From: a virus
Length of the DNA: 64,000 nt
Direction: 5' to 3' (one strand)
IMG/VR virus record: IMGVR_UViG_3300032242_001644
Coordinates: 1-64,000 of that record
Part shown: positions 34,192 through 38,501 of the stretch, piece after piece
How the letters are laid out: each line of letters begins with the position of its first letter
Numbering within the stretch: position 1 is the stretch's first letter
Made by a program: the position numbers and the translations under genes
Notes under the pieces: generated by a model
Told to the model about the DNA's origin: nothing
The model's database searches: none
The model's input: the letters and a program-made list of their open reading frames with translations, nothing else

Positions 34192-34950
34192 TTAACCAAT
34201 AATCCAGCTATAGCCAATGCCGCCGGATGCCGATGTTGCTAATTCGATTGTTAATCGATCTATGTCAGCTTGGCCTTCGGCTTTCATTGCGGCACCGTTT
34301 AGACTAGTTCCGCCCTGTGGGCCAGCAATTTGACTGAACAATTCACGAGCTTGTCCAAGCATGATTTTACAATTAGCCAGTGTATAGTCTTTAATCCACT
34401 GTCCTGAATAGGTGTCGTTGATAATTGCAGCATCTGGTTTTATATTGTAGATCCATAGTAGAATCTCTTCGTCTGAACGCGGACGTTGTTGTATTACTAG
34501 TCTCTTGTTTTGTGGATTCCAAGTAAAATTAATAAACGATCCAAACATTCTACCTACTAGTTCTTGATACTGTGCAAACAATTCGTAGGTCAACAAGCCA
34601 CCCATATTTGTCGATGACAACAAATAGGTATTAGTGTAGGCTAGGTTAAACGGTTCAAATACTGTACCACCTTGTCCACCACCTGATCGTGAACCGATCG
34701 AACGTCGGAACAACTGTCGTACCTGTTGTATTTCTTTGGGCAGTATATATTCGTTCTGATCTACTTTCAGTGTTAAGAACGCATAGCTTTCTTCCACAGC
34801 ATTATCGCTACGCTGACGGAATACTGCAAGAGCACGATTAAGTGCTGTTTCATAATGTATAGGGTCTAGCTCTACATCGATCATGCCTTCACCTAGCATG
34901 GCTTTGCAGTAGTTAAACACTTCTTGTTTTGATGGATCAATTTGGCTCAT
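34192..34950 (-). CDS. gp13: Neck protein (gp13-like)
   Basis: LG...IDVEL, WIKDY..A..K, GPQGGTSLNG, C-terminal IG. Confidence 0.8.
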   Translation of the reverse strand: MSQIDPSKQEVFNYCKAMLGEGMIDVELDPIHYETALNRALAVFRQRSDNAVEESYAFLTLKVDQNEYILPKEIQQVRQLFRRSIGSRSGGGQGGTVFEPFNLAYTNTYLLSSTNMGGLLTYELFAQYQELVGRMFGSFINFTWNPQNKRLVIQQRPRSDEEILLWIYNIKPDAAIINDTYSGQWIKDYTLANCKIMLGQARELFSQIAGPQGGTSLNGAAMKAEGQADIDRLTIELATSASGGIGYSWIIG

Positions 34951-34955
34951 GCTAG

Positions 34956-34967
34956 TATTTATAAATA
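34956..34967. promoter_or_regulatory. Palindromic bidirectional late promoter TATTTATAAATA
   Basis: T4 late consensus TATAAATA on both strands between divergent gp13 and gp14. Confidence 0.75.
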
Positions 34968-34974
34968 TATGACT

Positions 34975-36339
34975 ATGCCAAGACTCAGTTTATACAAGCC
35001 CGAAAAGGGCAATAATTACAAATTTATCGATAAAACCGTTTGGTCAATGTTCCAAGTTGGTGGCACCGATGTGTTTGTTCACAAGTATTTAGGTTCAGGT
35101 GCGCCTGTTGCTGGTACTTCAAGTCCTACGATTCCGCAGTATGATGCATTGAATCCGTCAAATATTCAAGATTTGCTGTTCTTGGAAAATAGAGATCGTA
35201 CTTACGATACAAATATCTACCAGTTGCGTGGAGTGTACAATGTGCAAGATACTGATTTTAATCTAAGTCAATTTGGCTTATTCTTGCAAAACGACACAGT
35301 GTTTATCAGTTTTCACATTAACGATACTGTAGAAAAACTTGGTCGTAAAATTATAGCAGGCGATGTTATCGAACTGCCGCATTTGAAAGACGAATATGCT
35401 CTTAACGATCTAACATTTACTCTAAAACGTTTCTATGTTGTTCAAGAAGTAAACAGAGCCAGCGAAGGATTTTCAGCAACTTGGTATCCACACCTATATC
35501 GTGCCAAGTGTACACCAATGGTTGACAGTCAAGAATTTAAACAGATCCTTGATGCTGCTGCGGATACTGCAAATGATCGAGGAGTGTGGGCAGAAAATAC
35601 CACTTACTATCCCGGTGATGTTGTTAAAGGTGCAGATGGACTATATTATAATGTCATTGCAGAAGTGACAAATATTTCGCCGCCTAACTCGACCTATTAT
35701 ACATTGGCCAACAGTCTACGTGATATTGTCAGTACTTACAAGAAAGAACTAGCAATCACACAGGCCGTATTAAACCAAGCAGAAGCAGATGCTCCAAAGA
35801 GTGGATTTGATGTTACTAAATTCTTTACACTCGCTGTTGATTCTGCAGGACACCCAGCACTGGTCACTGCCGATGAAGATACCATTGATGCCAGTACATT
35901 TACCATTAGTGGCGTAGATGGTGAGGCAACTACTGTAGATGCGTCAACTGTGCTGCAAACACCCACTAAAGAAGGATACGATAAAACGTATCTTATTGGC
36001 GACGGAGTTGCGCCAAACGGTGCTCCGTTTACCAGCGGTACAATATTTCCATCTGGTAATCCAGTTGAAGGACAATTCTGTTTACGCACTGACTTCTTCC
36101 CTAATAGACTATTCCGTTATTCAGGTAAGCGTTGGATCAAGTATGAAGATAATGTTAGAATGAACATGAGTAATATTGGCGCAGACGATGCTGCTGCTGG
36201 CATAACCACAGCCAACGGTATACGTCTTACACAGAAAAGTACGTTTGTTAATAATACAGCAACTGATAATATCAACGGACATATTATTAAAGAAAGACAA
36301 AGTCTTAGCAAGGCTCTTAGACCAAAGGCGGATGAATAA
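34975..36339 (+). CDS. gp14: Neck/head-closure protein (gp14-like) with extensions
   Basis: LSQFGLF and GDVIELP motifs, gp13/gp15 context. Start MPRLSLY at 34975 (or 34969); the track's TTG 34942 is unlikely. Confidence 0.7.
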   Translation: MPRLSLYKPEKGNNYKFIDKTVWSMFQVGGTDVFVHKYLGSGAPVAGTSSPTIPQYDALNPSNIQDLLFLENRDRTYDTNIYQLRGVYNVQDTDFNLSQFGLFLQNDTVFISFHINDTVEKLGRKIIAGDVIELPHLKDEYALNDLTFTLKRFYVVQEVNRASEGFSATWYPHLYRAKCTPMVDSQEFKQILDAAADTANDRGVWAENTTYYPGDVVKGADGLYYNVIAEVTNISPPNSTYYTLANSLRDIVSTYKKELAITQAVLNQAEADAPKSGFDVTKFFTLAVDSAGHPALVTADEDTIDASTFTISGVDGEATTVDASTVLQTPTKEGYDKTYLIGDGVAPNGAPFTSGTIFPSGNPVEGQFCLRTDFFPNRLFRYSGKRWIKYEDNVRMNMSNIGADDAAAGITTANGIRLTQKSTFVNNTATDNINGHIIKERQSLSKALRPKADE

Positions 36340-36866
36340 TGTATATCTATAAATTTACACATATAGAAAACGGCAAGTGCTACATTGGACAAACTATTCA
36401 AGATCCAAATCAACGTCGTCTAGAGCATATTGCAGATAGTCGATATACTGCTAAGACATACCATTTTCATAATGCTCTACGAAAATATGGCATAGATGCA
36501 TTTACATTCGATGTAATTGATTCTGCAACATCATTAGATGATTTAAATAAATTAGAAGAAAAGTATGTATTATTATTTGATTCGATTAACAATGGATATA
36601 ATATTCGAAATCCGGGCGACAATAAAACACATAATCCCGCTAGTATCGAACGTATGAGAGAATCTCAGCGTAATGCTCATGCTAGAAGAAAAACATTAGG
36701 TACAGATACGTGGACACGTAAAGACGGCGGCCCTATGAAGGGTAAGACGCAATCAACAAATACAAAAGAAAAGATGCGAATTGCGCACTTAGAAGCAACA
36801 CATTGTAGAGGAAAAACATGGAAATTAATAGATGGAAAACGTGTTTGGCTGGAGGCTTCGGTTTAA
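36339..36866 (+). mobile_element. Free-standing GIY-YIG homing endonuclease (Seg-like) with NUMOD3-like tail
   Basis: YIYK...YIGQT, R..EH, LE..Y, GYN; KGKTQS..TKEKMR. Confidence 0.88.
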
Positions 36867-36881
36867 CACCGTTGAAATATT

Positions 36882-38501
36882 ATTCAGTTCTTTTATGACG
36901 GTCAAATTAGACGATATGTAACACAATTTATGCGCATCTTCATTGGGTTTAAGACTCAAGCAGGCGATGGCACACTGAGACAAATTCCAGTAATGTACGG
37001 TGACATGACCAAACAAGTTGCCAGCATTATTAAAGAAAACAGCGAAAACAAAATGCCCAGTGTGCCTCGTATTGCCTGTTACATCACTGGTATTGAAATT
37101 GCACGTGACAGACTAAGTGATTCAAGTTTTGTCAGCAAGTTAAACATTAGAGAACGTGCTTATACCACTGCTGCGGGCAACATTGAGTACGAAAATTATC
37201 AAGGTGGTGGCTATACTGTTGAGCGTTTAATGCCAACTCCGTACAAGTTGACAATGAAAGCAGACATCTGGACCAGCAACACTGACCAAAAGTTACAGGT
37301 CATGGAACAGATACTAATGTTGTTTAATCCTAGTTTAGAAATACAAACTACGGACAACTATATTGACTGGACCAGTCTAAGTGTGGTCGATCTAACTGGG
37401 ACAAATTTTACCAGTAGATCAATTCCAGTTGGGTCTGCCGACGATATTGATATTTGTTCTTTAGACTTTGAAATGCCTATTTGGATCAGTCCTCCTACCA
37501 AGGTCAAGAAACTTGGTGTTGTTAAAAACATTATTATGAATATTTTTGGTGAGCAAGGTGATGTTAGTGACCTGTCTAATATATTGTTTAATGATCCAAA
37601 TGCACAGGCCACATCAACTCCGGGTAATTTTGGAGTAATATTACTCAAGGCCAATAATGGTCAGCCTCATGACTATAATGTTGAAGTGTTAGATGCCAAT
37701 GAAGCAGTAAGTGAAGTAGGACTTGAAGCGCCCACTAAACAAAGTTATCGTATTGATTGGCATAAGGTTCTTGAACTGTACGGCGGTTATCAGCCAGGTA
37801 TCAGCCAGATATTTTTTAGACAACCTAGCGGCAATGAACTAGGCGGAACTTTCACAGTTAATGAAATAGATCCGTCGTTTATCGTTGTTACTATTGACCC
37901 TGATACAATACCCACTAATTCGTTAGGTGCAATTACCGCAATTATTGACCCTTATAAATTTAATCCCATTGCAACATTTGGCAGTAAAGCTGATATACCG
38001 CAAGGCACACGCTACTTAATTCTTGATGATATTAACATATTAGAAGACAGGTATTGGACCACAGAAGTTCGAAGAGTAAATGCACTTACTAGCCAATTTG
38101 ATCTTGCAGTTCCATTCTCATCACTGACTGCCTATCAGGTGTTTGTTGAAAAGACCGAAGTGATTTCATCGGTTGTTGAACACAACGGCAATGTTAGAGT
38201 TGTTCTTGATACTGCGGTTCAGAATGCCAAAGTTACAATTAAAACCATGACAGGTTATGACGGCCCAGATGCTTGGAAAAATACCGATATGACTGACACG
38301 GTGGTTGCTGCTAATTCTGTAATTGAATGGAATGGTGCCAAATGGGATGTGGTGTTTGTTCCAGGCCCAGTGGTTAATCCAATCTATACTACAAATGCAA
38401 AAACTGGTATACAGTACAAATGGGATGGAGAGCAATGGGTCAAGAGTTTCGAAGGCGAATATGCCAGCGGATACTGGCGATTCGTTCTTGACCCAGTATA
38501 A
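36882..38501 (+). CDS. gp15: Tail sheath stabiliser/terminator (gp15-like) with C-terminal extension
   Basis: IPVMYG, VPRI, PTPY, QVMEQIL..FNP. The frame extends upstream of ATG 36930 through QFFYDGQIRRY to ATT 36882; true start uncertain. Confidence 0.8.
   Translation: MQFFYDGQIRRYVTQFMRIFIGFKTQAGDGTLRQIPVMYGDMTKQVASIIKENSENKMPSVPRIACYITGIEIARDRLSDSSFVSKLNIRERAYTTAAGNIEYENYQGGGYTVERLMPTPYKLTMKADIWTSNTDQKLQVMEQILMLFNPSLEIQTTDNYIDWTSLSVVDLTGTNFTSRSIPVGSADDIDICSLDFEMPIWISPPTKVKKLGVVKNIIMNIFGEQGDVSDLSNILFNDPNAQATSTPGNFGVILLKANNGQPHDYNVEVLDANEAVSEVGLEAPTKQSYRIDWHKVLELYGGYQPGISQIFFRQPSGNELGGTFTVNEIDPSFIVVTIDPDTIPTNSLGAITAIIDPYKFNPIATFGSKADIPQGTRYLILDDINILEDRYWTTEVRRVNALTSQFDLAVPFSSLTAYQVFVEKTEVISSVVEHNGNVRVVLDTAVQNAKVTIKTMTGYDGPDAWKNTDMTDTVVAANSVIEWNGAKWDVVFVPGPVVNPIYTTNAKTGIQYKWDGEQWVKSFEGEYASGYWRFVLDPV

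What the first reader, a model, noticed from the sequence alone, without database searches (positions are those of the whole stretch)
36337..36932. Homing endonuclease appears to have captured the gp15 start codon; gp15 may restart at ATT via a looped-out SD
Seen: the gp14 stop overlaps an ATG (TAATG 36337-41) that now starts the GIY-YIG ORF. After its TAA (36864-66) the same frame reads CAC CGT TGA AAT ATT ATT CAG TTC TTT TAT GAC GGT..., giving QFFYDGQIRRY with no Met. Removing 36342-36884 restores a coupled M-QFFYDGQIRRY gene, similar to the FY...IRRY N-terminus of gp15 proteins. A GGAGG (36851-55) lies inside the endonuclease's last codons, followed by hairpin TTCGGT-TTAAC-ACCG-TT-GAA (36857-76) that would bring it close to ATT 36879/36882. 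Inference: the element supplies a non-AUG, structure-assisted initiation site for the essential gene it interrupted, so it cannot easily be lost.
Basis: partly seen in the sequence, partly recalled or inferred. Interest (0 to 1): 0.72.

Follow-up and report, generated by a model that had tools for sequence, protein, structure and literature searches.

The report
Homing endonuclease replaces gp15 start codon
A selfish endonuclease gene sits exactly between the start codon and the second codon of an essential phage tail gene; about 130 related uncultured phages indicate that the tail gene is then read from an ATT/ATC/ATA codon positioned by a GGAGG-plus-hairpin module, which persists even after the endonuclease gene decays.

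Summary
The gp14 stop overlaps an ATG (TAATG, 36337-41) that opens a 175-aa GIY-YIG endonuclease ORF (36339-36866). Behind it, gp15 (T4 tail sheath stabiliser family) runs in frame from ATT ATT CAG with no ATG/GTG/TTG.

About 75 distinct IMG/VR junctions share one layout: GGAGG, an abutting 7-bp hairpin, exactly 7 nt, then ATT/ATC/ATA (ATG only twice), then gp15 codon 2. Seven stem sequences keep this geometry through compensatory changes (covariation beats 500 of 500 shuffles).

In 46 of 71 contexts the endonuclease ORF has shrunk to 0-69 codons. The GGAGG-hairpin-spacer module always survives, and the remnants are almost always in frame to the stop in the hairpin loop. The 15 N-terminal gp15 codons stay under purifying selection (pN/pS 0.21), and no downstream start codon is conserved.

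Best reading: split-Shine-Dalgarno, non-AUG initiation at ATT 36882-84, probably fed by termination of the upstream ORF. This is inferred from comparison, not shown by experiment.

Unexplained: 17 junctions have no in-frame near-cognate codon at all ("A-TCG").

The parts
34969..36339 (+). gp14-like neck/virion protein gene. Its stop TAA 36337-39 overlaps the next ATG. The 5' end is uncertain (ATG at about 34969/34975; the ORF listing gives TTG 34942).
   Evidence: PHROG 11591 virion structural protein, 3e-81. The C-terminal ...LRPKADE* motif is conserved in relatives.
36337..36341 (+). TAATG stop-start overlap. In empty-site relatives this is the gp14 stop and gp15 start; here it starts the endonuclease.
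   Evidence: Empty-site alleles.
36339..36866 (+). Free-standing GIY-YIG homing endonuclease gene, 175 aa.
   Evidence: Pfam GIY-YIG 1.3e-6; NUMOD3 only weak and below the curated cut-off. PHROG 314/5123 homing endonuclease. 62 homologous loci at the same junction.
36342..36884 (+). The inserted cassette (543 nt) relative to the empty-site allele: the endonuclease ORF minus its ATG, plus an 18-nt tail ending in ATT ATT.
   Evidence: Contigs in runs X4 and X7 join 36341 to 36885. L001 has the same flanks with AGT in between.
36851..36855 (+). GGAGG Shine-Dalgarno sequence for gp15, inside the last codons of the endonuclease.
   Evidence: Near-invariant in 66 junctions: three positions invariant, the other two conserved in at least 90%. 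Retained in all deletion scars.
36856..36874 (+). Hairpin directly abutting the SD. Core CGGT/ACCG pairs 36859-62 with 36868-71; loop TTAAC 36863-67 holds the endonuclease stop TAA 36864-66; closing pair is C36856-G36874.
   Evidence: Core stem is in the MFE of 63 of 66 family members; window -4.2 kcal/mol. Compensatory changes across 7 stem types; covariation 0.308 against 0.179 in shuffles, 0 of 500 as high.
36875..36881 (+). 7-nt A/U-rich spacer between stem and start codon; contains the alternative ATT 36879-81.
   Evidence: The 7-nt length holds in all 28 representative stems. The endonuclease stop is 18 nt from codon 2 in 57 of 71 contexts; the 19-nt forms carry the extra base as a stem bulge.
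36882..36884 (+). ATT, the proposed gp15 initiation codon. It occupies the place of the ancestral ATG.
   Evidence: The codon at this position in the family is ATT 14, ATC 16, ATA 14, TCG 22, ATG 1. Further stem types have ATC, ATT or ATG.
36885..38501 (+). gp15 (tail sheath stabiliser / tail terminator) coding sequence from codon 2 to the stop.
   Evidence: Pfam T4-gp15_tss 1.4e-26. PHROG 11196/227. PDB 4HUH/4HUD.
36930..36932 (+). First in-frame ATG: an internal Met of gp15, not a conserved start.
   Evidence: No SD upstream. This residue is I or L in many relatives. The first in-frame ATG is at least 36 codons downstream in 33 of 69 hairpin-type lineages.

Best explanation
A free-standing GIY-YIG homing endonuclease cassette has been copied between the ATG and codon 2 of gp15. 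The endonuclease now uses gp15's old ribosome-binding site and its start codon, which is coupled to the gp14 stop.

The cassette's own 3' end gives gp15 a replacement initiation region. A strong GGAGG sits inside the last endonuclease codons, followed directly by a hairpin, which removes 19 nt from the effective SD-to-start distance. Seven nucleotides later comes a near-cognate AUU (36882-84), which is read by initiator tRNA.

Ribosomes that finish the endonuclease ORF, or its remnant, at the UAA in the hairpin loop probably feed this weak start by termination-reinitiation. AUH codons give roughly 0.1-3% of AUG output in E. coli, which may be enough for a protein needed at 6 copies per virion.

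Shown: the anatomy, the empty site, conservation, covariation, retention of the module after endonuclease decay, and purifying selection on the N-terminus. Inferred: that AUU is the codon used, that the hairpin acts by shortening the spacing, and that coupling takes place.
For: 1. Precise insertion. The empty-site joint 36341|36885 is present in two sister samples. The window's three nearest gp15 relatives (99% aa over residues 26-250 for L001) are all endonuclease-free and start with ATG.

2. All 47 distinct endonuclease-free junctions have ATG (one has TTG) directly before the FYDGQ(I/V)RRY codons.

3. Of 71 distinct hairpin-type contexts, only 1 has ATG at the ancestral position. 44 have ATT, ATC or ATA, and 5 more have an in-frame ATC one codon upstream.

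4. The geometry GGAGG | stem | 7 nt | start | codon 2 is constant in 28 representative stems of 7 sequence types. 5 of 7 pairs show double-sided changes. The covariation score is 0.308 against 0.179 +/- 0.024 in shuffles (0 of 500 reach it), and slid controls give 0.01-0.08.

5. Endonuclease-bearing junctions without a hairpin all have a canonical ATG or GTG 6-9 nt after their SD. Two hairpin junctions (L082, L116) keep ATG at exactly the position of the window's ATT.

6. In 46 of 71 contexts the endonuclease ORF is reduced to 0-69 codons by different deletions, yet every one keeps GGAGG + hairpin + spacer. Starred (well-supported) branches of the gp15 tree force at least 17 changes of the scar state, and full-length versus scar among hairpin alleles needs 19 changes.

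7. 25 remnants are in frame from the gp14-coupled ATG to the loop TAA. Only 2 read past it, and both stop before codon 2. One in three would be in frame by chance.

8. The 15 N-terminal codons of hairpin-type alleles have pS 0.84 and pN 0.17 (ratio 0.21), with no stops or indels in 62 distinct sequences. T4 gp15 shares the motif from its residue 3.

9. Precedents: split SD with an intervening hairpin in T4 genes 38 and 25 (PMC3014915); AUU starts of infC and pcnB, and AUA/AUC/AUU at 0.1-3% of AUG (bioRxiv 10.1101/063800).
Against: - There are no expression, proteomic or toeprint data. The phage is uncultured and no RNA run holds it.
- The window's own hairpin is weak. The extended stem has two U-U mismatches; the full 61-nt context folds differently, with z = -0.5.
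- 17 distinct junctions (AAA-TCG, ACA-TCG) have no in-frame codon within one mismatch of AUG, so AUH initiation cannot be the whole story for the family.
- ATG, GTG and TTG are almost never found at the start position even though ATT, ATC and ATA interchange. A simple 'decayed but tolerated start' does not predict this.
- The host, and therefore its use of SD sequences, is unknown.
Confidence: 0.65

Rival explanations
1. Geometry-defined initiation that hardly depends on the codon. The SD-hairpin module fixes which triplet sits in the P site (A site = codon 2), and initiation proceeds even on UCG, or on a four-base AUCG with the C looped out, or on AUC followed by an immediate +1 slip. AUU in the window would be only the mildest case.
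For: In 17 distinct junctions the only in-frame codons after the nearest stop are ACT/AGT, AAA/ACA and TCG. An out-of-frame ATC always abuts ('ATCG' + codon 2). The distance from stem to codon 2 is the same 10 nt as in the AUH classes. Their gp15 ORFs are intact, with pN/pS 0.18. There is a single gp15 copy in a 221-kb contig of this class. The class also occurs in a scar with no upstream ORF (L153). TCG never varies, although Ser codon 2 in empty alleles is AGT, AGC or TCA.
Against: I know of no precedent for a 4-base or non-cognate start in bacteria (own knowledge). TCG may simply be Ser codon 2 of an MS(D/Q/E) N-terminus, with very weak initiation on AAA/ACA. The 17 junctions share ancestry, so the constancy of ATCG is weak evidence. 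For the window itself, ordinary AUU initiation is sufficient.
Confidence: 0.1
2. Recoding from the upstream ORF. Translation starts at the captured ATG 36339, runs through the endonuclease or its remnant, and reaches gp15 by bypassing or frameshifting at the UAA in the hairpin loop, as in the MobA/gene 60 cassette.
For: The features resemble the gene 60 bypass cassette: a stop codon in a stem-loop, an SD, an AU-rich gap, a homing endonuclease partner and 'hit and run' remnants (bioRxiv 10.1101/2022.08.31.505936). The remnants are strongly biased to stay in frame from the ATG to the loop TAA (25 against 2).
Against: The take-off and landing codons do not match: GTT (or TCG) against ATT/ATC/ATA. 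At least five scars have no ATG or ORF upstream at all, with the gp14 stop abutting AAGGAGG. The offset between the endonuclease stop and gp15 is 18 or 19 nt, so no single frameshift fits. The window has a second in-frame stop, TGA 36873-75. A 175-aa endonuclease fused to a tail terminator is implausible. The frame bias is also explained by coupling, or by avoiding ribosome traffic across the start.
Confidence: 0.1
3. gp15 starts at the first canonical codon, ATG 36930, and lacks 16-17 N-terminal residues.
For: It is the first ATG in frame, and Met is common at this position in relatives.
Against: There is no SD upstream. The skipped FYDGQIRRY motif is the most conserved part of the N-terminus from this clade to T4 and stays under purifying selection in non-ATG alleles. 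The Met is replaced by I or L in many hairpin-type alleles, and in 33 of 69 the first in-frame ATG is at least 36 codons downstream. This reading would not explain conservation of GGAGG, the hairpin and the 7-nt spacing.
Confidence: 0.06
4. The endonuclease lies in a self-splicing intron (or other RNA-level excision) that restores ATG-CAG in the mRNA.
For: GIY-YIG endonucleases are often intron-encoded, and the insert length (543 nt) is a multiple of 3.
Against: No Rfam intron match even at E <= 10. The ORF fills 525 of the 543 inserted bases, which leaves no room for a ribozyme core. The bases at the boundaries (G|T ... T|C) do not fit group I or group II splice sites. Scars of 13-60 nt cannot be introns, yet they keep the same non-ATG start.
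Confidence: 0.02
5. The allele is defective (gp15 not made) and persists only by super-Mendelian homing or complementation in mixed infections, or ATT is an assembly error.
For: Empty-site and deleted alleles co-occur in the same study.
Against: The same architecture is found in 117+ IMG/VR stretches from many samples and in diverse gp15 lineages, and it persists long enough for the endonuclease to decay in at least 17 independent lineages while gp15 stays intact. The window allele is the 16x main contig in its sample, with no variant at these bases.
Confidence: 0.03

Closest known systems
Split ribosome-binding sites of phage T4 genes 38 and 25 (Nivinskas/Malys; reviewed in PMC3014915)
   Same: The SD lies 22-27 nt from the start codon, and an intervening hairpin brings them to a functional distance (5 and 11 nt in T4). 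Here 26 nt is reduced to 7. Both involve late structural genes of T4-like phages, and both are supported by phylogenetic conservation of the stem.
   Different: The T4 cases use AUG and are not linked to a mobile element. Here the start is AUU/AUC/AUA, the SD and half of the stem lie inside an upstream ORF whose stop is in the loop, and the module arrived with a homing endonuclease.
AUU start codons of E. coli infC and pcnB
   Same: A conserved near-cognate AUU serves as the sole start of a needed protein, giving low output.
   Different: Those are chromosomal regulatory cases (IF3 autoregulation). Here the non-AUG start replaced an ancestral AUG when a mobile element inserted, it varies among AUU, AUC and AUA, and IF3 dependence is untested.
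MobA homing endonuclease + gene 60 ribosomal bypass cassette of T4-like phages (bioRxiv 10.1101/2022.08.31.505936)
   Same: A homing endonuclease cassette interrupts an essential gene and carries an RNA module (stem-loop with a stop codon, SD, AU-rich stretch) that rescues translation of the interrupted gene. The module persists after endonuclease loss ('hit and run').
   Different: Gene 60 is rescued by peptidyl-tRNA hopping between matched GGA codons within one polypeptide. Here there are no matched codons, scars without an upstream ORF exist, and the rescue is most simply a new initiation site.
Free-standing seg/mob homing endonuclease genes of T4-like phages (SegB, SegG, MobE)
   Same: A GIY-YIG gene sits between or within conserved genes, shows presence/absence polymorphism among close relatives, and is expressed from neighbouring signals.
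   Different: As far as I know, the described ones lie in intergenic space or split a gene into two ORFs that each have normal starts. This one takes the host gene's start codon and leaves it a non-AUG start.

Membership tests
GIY-YIG free-standing homing endonuclease gene | GIY-YIG catalytic domain with GIY, YIG, Arg, Glu and Asn motifs | tested here: met
   Pfam PF01541 1.3e-6 over residues 1-88; PHROG 314, 7168, 5123 homing endonuclease down to 1.6e-26. YIYKF...CYIGQT...R...E...N is visible in the translation.
GIY-YIG free-standing homing endonuclease gene | Presence/absence polymorphism at one precise site among close relatives, with no intron around it | tested here: met
   Empty-site joint 36341|36885. 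L001-L003 are empty at 94-96% gp15 identity. 62 homologues lie at the same junction. No Rfam intron.
GIY-YIG free-standing homing endonuclease gene | Site-specific cleavage of the empty allele and homing in mixed infection | not testable with these tools
   The only indirect evidence is the patchy distribution on the gp15 tree: 17 changes of module presence against 44 in shuffles.
T4 gp15 tail sheath stabiliser / tail terminator | Sequence membership, including the N-terminal FY..(F/I)RRY motif | tested here: met
   Pfam PF16724 1.4e-26 from residue 6. PDB 4HUH/4HUD at E 2e-4, aligned from T4 residue 3. Synteny with gp14-like, sheath and other tail genes.
Split Shine-Dalgarno initiation region (T4 gene 38/25 type) | SD more than 15 nt from the start, with a hairpin between them that restores a 5-11 nt effective spacing | tested here: met
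   GGAGG 36851-55 to ATT 36882 is 26 nt. The stem 36856-74 leaves 7 nt. The same holds in 28 of 28 representative stems.
Split Shine-Dalgarno initiation region (T4 gene 38/25 type) | The stem is conserved as a structure (compensatory changes) | tested here: met
   5 of 7 pairs have double-sided changes, and 0 of 500 shuffles reach the covariation score. Within the closest clade alone the signal is weak (27 of 500).
Split Shine-Dalgarno initiation region (T4 gene 38/25 type) | Destabilising the stem lowers translation | not testable with these tools
   Needs reporter assays.
Non-AUG (AUU-type) bacterial initiation | Near-cognate codon at the position of the start, with no canonical start able to give the conserved N-terminus | tested here: met
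   Window: only AAT, ATT, ATT lie between TGA 36873-75 and codon 2. Family: ATT/ATC/ATA in 44 of 71 contexts.
Non-AUG (AUU-type) bacterial initiation | The protein N-terminus is fMet/Met decoded at that codon | not testable with these tools
   No proteomic or ribosome profiling data. No RNA holder is listed.
Non-AUG (AUU-type) bacterial initiation | The feature holds for all members of the clade | tested here: not met
   17 distinct AAA/ACA-TCG junctions have no in-frame near-cognate codon.
Group I/II intron with endonuclease ORF | Ribozyme core and splice-site bases | tested here: not met
   No Rfam hit at E <= 10. Only 18 non-ORF bases lie in the insert. The boundary bases do not fit.
Gene 60-type translational bypass | Matched take-off and landing codons flanking the gap | tested here: not met
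   The last sense codon is GTT (GCT in a few), while the landing position is ATT/ATC/ATA/TCG. Scars without any upstream ORF exist.

The most novel reading that the evidence does not exclude
The SD-hairpin module fixes the ribosome so rigidly (A site on gp15 codon 2) that initiation no longer needs a cognate or near-cognate triplet. In about a quarter of lineages the P-site triplet is UCG, preceded by A ('AUCG'). That would imply either a four-base start codon read by initiator tRNA with one base looped out, or near codon-independent initiation. In addition, strong start codons (ATG, GTG, TTG) appear to be selected against at this site, perhaps because restoring them recreates the endonuclease target.
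Probability: 0.12. Interest if true: 0.9.

Novelty: new variant of a known kind. Interest (0 to 1): 0.76.

Why it matters
This finding shows a homing endonuclease doing more than sitting between genes. It takes the start codon and ribosome-binding site of an essential structural gene, and it pays for this with a portable replacement initiation module (strong SD, bridging hairpin, non-AUG start).

Natural deletion series in dozens of lineages act as a mutagenesis experiment. The endonuclease is dispensable, the module is not, and the upstream reading frame must end in the hairpin loop.

Three things follow:

- It gives a large, sequence-diverse natural set of split-SD, non-AUG initiation sites for testing the rules of bacterial start selection, including a subclass that fits no known rule.
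- It explains a class of 'start-less' essential genes that gene callers will truncate or miss in jumbo-phage metagenomes.
- It extends the MobA/gene 60 idea that selfish nucleases travel with RNA devices that repair the damage they cause.

Tried and rejected
- Megablast of 35900-37400 against GenBank phages gave no match. Only distant (<=38% aa) jumbo-phage gp15 homologues were found.
- The Rfam scan at E <= 10 found no intron; the only hit was a chance AilA thermometer match (E 0.78) inside gp15.
- Single-sequence folding of 36840-36900 gave z = -0.5, and the MFE is a different fold that uses upstream endonuclease codons deleted in the scars. I rejected this as the conserved structure.
- Covariation within the closest clade alone was weak (27 of 500 shuffles), because the search pattern fixed the core. 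Targeted scans for broken core pairs solved this.
- The NTG just after the stem as start of a mini-ORF with a +1 frameshift: rejected. NTG is absent in several variants (TCG, TAA, GAG), it is often followed directly by a stop, and it belongs to the extended stem.
- Hopping from Tyr, Ser or Val codons: it fits some variants but not all (L111; alleles with no ORF).
- A phage-encoded initiator tRNA with an altered anticodon: a 221-kb relative of the TCG class has 41 tRNA genes, 3 with CAU, 2 Ile-GAU and an odd 90-nt UAU prediction. None has clear initiator features together with a non-CAU anticodon. Inconclusive and dropped.
- The genome-contig scan with the hairpin pattern returned only random bacterial matches, none followed by the gp15 motif. 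No host clue.
- No RNA holder is listed for the stretch.
- A late-promoter (TATAAATA-like) reading of the spacer: no consistent box.

Full report
**Anatomy.** The window is part of an 86-kb IMG/VR contig, estimated 24% complete, so it is a fragment of an uncultured jumbo T4-like phage.

- The gp14-like gene ends at TAA 36337-39 and overlaps ATG 36339-41.
- From that ATG runs a 175-aa ORF (to TAA 36864-66) with a GIY-YIG domain and only a weak, sub-threshold NUMOD3 match (E 0.0082, below the curated cut-off). It hits homing-endonuclease PHROGs.
- The same frame continues CAC CGT TGA AAT ATT ATT CAG TTC TTT TAT GAC and then runs to 38501.
- From CAG onward this is a T4 gp15-family tail sheath stabiliser (Pfam 1.4e-26). 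T4 gp15 residue 3 aligns to the Q at 36885, so the FY..RRY motif belongs to the extreme N-terminus of the family.
- No ATG, GTG or TTG lies between the in-frame TGA 36873-75 and ATG 36930.

**The empty site.**

- IMG/VR holds 79 gp15 relatives. The three closest (94-96% aa) have identical upstream sequence and read TAATG AGT CAG TTC or TAATG AAT TTT, with no endonuclease.
- All 47 distinct endonuclease-free junctions start with ATG (one with TTG) directly in front of (x)xFYDGQ(I/V)RRY.
- Logan contigs from two sister samples of the same study join 36341 directly to 36885, skipping 543 nt.
- The probable source sample reproduces the window without a single difference. It also holds a minor contig with an internal deletion of the endonuclease.
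- On a gp15 tree (residues 26-250) the window sits in a well-supported (starred) four-row clade with three empty alleles. The cassette is therefore a recent arrival in this lineage.

**A family of occupied sites.** Homologues of the endonuclease (42-87% aa) sit at the same gp14|gp15 junction in 62 IMG/VR loci. A search with the nucleotide motif around the endonuclease stop found 117 stretches, about 65 of them distinct junctions, all at this site.

In 71 distinct contexts the codon directly before gp15 codon 2 is:

| Codon | Contexts |
|---|---|
| ATT | 14 |
| ATC | 16 |
| ATA | 14 |
| TCG | 22 |
| ATG | 1 |

The remaining 4 contexts were mis-parsed by the motif finder.

Endonuclease-bearing junctions that lack the hairpin (ten 3'-end types) all give gp15 a normal ATG or GTG 6-9 nt after an SD, often overlapping the endonuclease stop. 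One of them (the L128 type) reads GGAGGC-AGAATAATG, so the hairpin looks like a 17-nt insertion into that arrangement.

**Geometry and structure.**

- Alignment of 66 junctions shows a near-invariant GGAGG (three positions invariant, two conserved in at least 90%), followed directly by the stem (window C36856 to G36874). The core is CGGT/ACCG and the 5-nt loop holds the stop.
- Exactly 7 nt follow, then the start-position codon, then codon 2. Variants that are one base longer carry the extra base as a bulge in the stem.
- Because my search pattern had fixed the core, I scanned for junctions with a broken core base. All the hits were compensated (C-G to U-A, G-C to A-U, and fully paired outer stems), and all kept 7 nt + ATC/ATT.
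- Two more stem types (L095 with ATC; L082 with ATG) bring the total to seven stem sequences with one geometry.
- On 28 representative stems, 82.7% of cells pair and 5 of 7 pairs show double-sided changes. The covariation score is 0.308 against 0.179 +/- 0.024 in shuffles (0 of 500 as high) and 0.01-0.08 for slid partners.
- With the stem formed, the SD-to-start spacing drops from 26 nt to 7 nt. This is the principle shown experimentally for T4 genes 38 and 25 (PMC3014915).
- In the window the stem is weak (-4.2 kcal/mol for the SD-to-codon-2 segment), and single-sequence folding is uninformative.

**Natural deletion series.**

- Only 24 of 71 contexts have a full-length endonuclease. 46 have remnants of 0-69 codons with many different deletion end-points: for example a 5-codon ATG...TAA, 11-19-codon remnants that keep the first 4-7 and last 4-5 codons, or no ORF at all with the gp14 stop abutting AAGGAGG.
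- Every one of them retains GGAGG, the hairpin, the spacer and the non-ATG start, and gp15 is intact at 450-540 aa.
- Starred (well-supported) branches of the gp15 tree force at least 17 changes of the scar state. Full-length versus scar among hairpin alleles needs 19 changes, close to the 23.5 seen with shuffled labels, so the two states are barely clustered.
- Of the remnants that keep the gp14-coupled ATG, 25 are in frame to the loop TAA and 3 stop far upstream. Only 2 read past the loop, and both stop before codon 2, one with its TAG overlapping the ATA start.
- Random deletions would be in frame one time in three. Either the upstream ORF must deliver terminating ribosomes to this place, or it must not run across it. 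Both readings imply that gp15 initiates here.

**Is the N-terminus translated?**

- In 62 distinct non-ATG alleles the first 15 conserved codons have pS 0.84 and pN 0.17 (ratio 0.21, against 0.12 in empty alleles), with no stop or indel.
- The Met at 36930 is I or L in many alleles. In 33 of 69 the first in-frame ATG lies at least 36 codons downstream.
- Large contigs carry a single gp15 copy.
- Downstream initiation, pseudogenisation and a second copy are therefore all unlikely.

**Mechanism.** The best-supported reading is de novo or reinitiating translation at the codon 7 nt after the stem. In the window this is ATT 36882-84. ATT 36879-81, at 4 nt, is a less likely alternative. The start is directed by GGAGG across the hairpin.

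In E. coli, AUA, AUC and AUU give 0.1-3% of AUG output, and other codons give 0.01-0.1% (bioRxiv 10.1101/063800). gp15 is a six-copy virion protein (established knowledge of T4), so a weak start on an abundant late mRNA is plausible.

Rejected or unlikely alternatives:

- Splicing: no ribozyme, no room for one, and scars too short to be introns.
- Gene 60-like bypass: no matched codons, scars without any upstream ORF, variable frame offset, and a second stop in the window.
- Read error.

**What does not fit.**

- Seventeen distinct junctions read ...(A/C)A-TCG + codon 2. Only ACT/AGT, AAA/ACA and TCG lie in frame after the nearest stop, and an ATC lies one base out of frame.
- These alleles are intact, under purifying selection (pN/pS 0.18), and include a scar with no upstream ORF. 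No known initiation rule explains them.
- ATG, GTG and TTG are almost absent from the start position although the three AUH codons interchange. This suggests selection against a strong start, or against re-creating the endonuclease target. I could not test either idea.

**Novelty.** Full-text searches found no description of an endonuclease at the gp15 start, or of a homing cassette supplying a non-AUG start. The nearest concept is the MobA/gene 60 bypass cassette, which also shows 'hit and run' remnants.

Homing endonucleases, split SDs and AUU starts are each known. Their combination into a portable, start-codon-replacing module that outlives its endonuclease appears to be new. The TCG subclass could be something more.

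Noticed in passing
L137's record (G001, 221-kb IMG/VR contig), about 5.6-18.5 kb; loci L260-L289: A relative of the TCG class carries an array of 41 tRNA genes. It includes three tRNA(CAU), one of them with a U1-U72 mismatch; two tandem tRNA-Ile(GAU), one of odd shape; and a 90-nt class-II-like prediction with anticodon UAU.
   Followed up: partly
window 36348-36357: The first codons of the endonuclease (TAT AAA TTT) form CTATAAATTT, which resembles the T4 late-promoter box TATAAATA. Many deletion remnants keep exactly these codons just upstream of the SD (for example L158). A promoter role was not tested.
   Followed up: no
L128-L133 (IMG/VR): In a sister form of the cassette the endonuclease ends ...GGAGGCAGAATAATG, overlapping a normal gp15 ATG. 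The hairpin of the window type therefore looks like a 17-nt insertion into this sequence, with both cassette ends mimicking the gp14 stop/start overlap.
   Followed up: partly
window 36313-36898, run X1 contig record 3: The probable source sample also holds a low-depth 329-nt contig with an internal replacement/deletion of the endonuclease (36366 joined to 36789, with 65 other letters between) on a diverged gp15. This is a scar allele of a related phage in the same sample.
   Followed up: no
window 34942-34977: The start of the gp14-like gene is ambiguous. The ATGs at about 34969/34975 are more likely starts.
   Followed up: no
L152 and L180 (IMG/VR): An out-of-frame remnant ORF reads through the hairpin and stops at a TAG that overlaps the ATA start of gp15 (ATAGAT). 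This is a stop/start overlap on a non-AUG start.
   Followed up: no
window 37497-37578: Weak Rfam match to the AilA 5' UTR thermometer (23.9 bits against a gathering score of 81; E 0.78) inside the gp15 coding sequence. Almost certainly chance.
   Followed up: no
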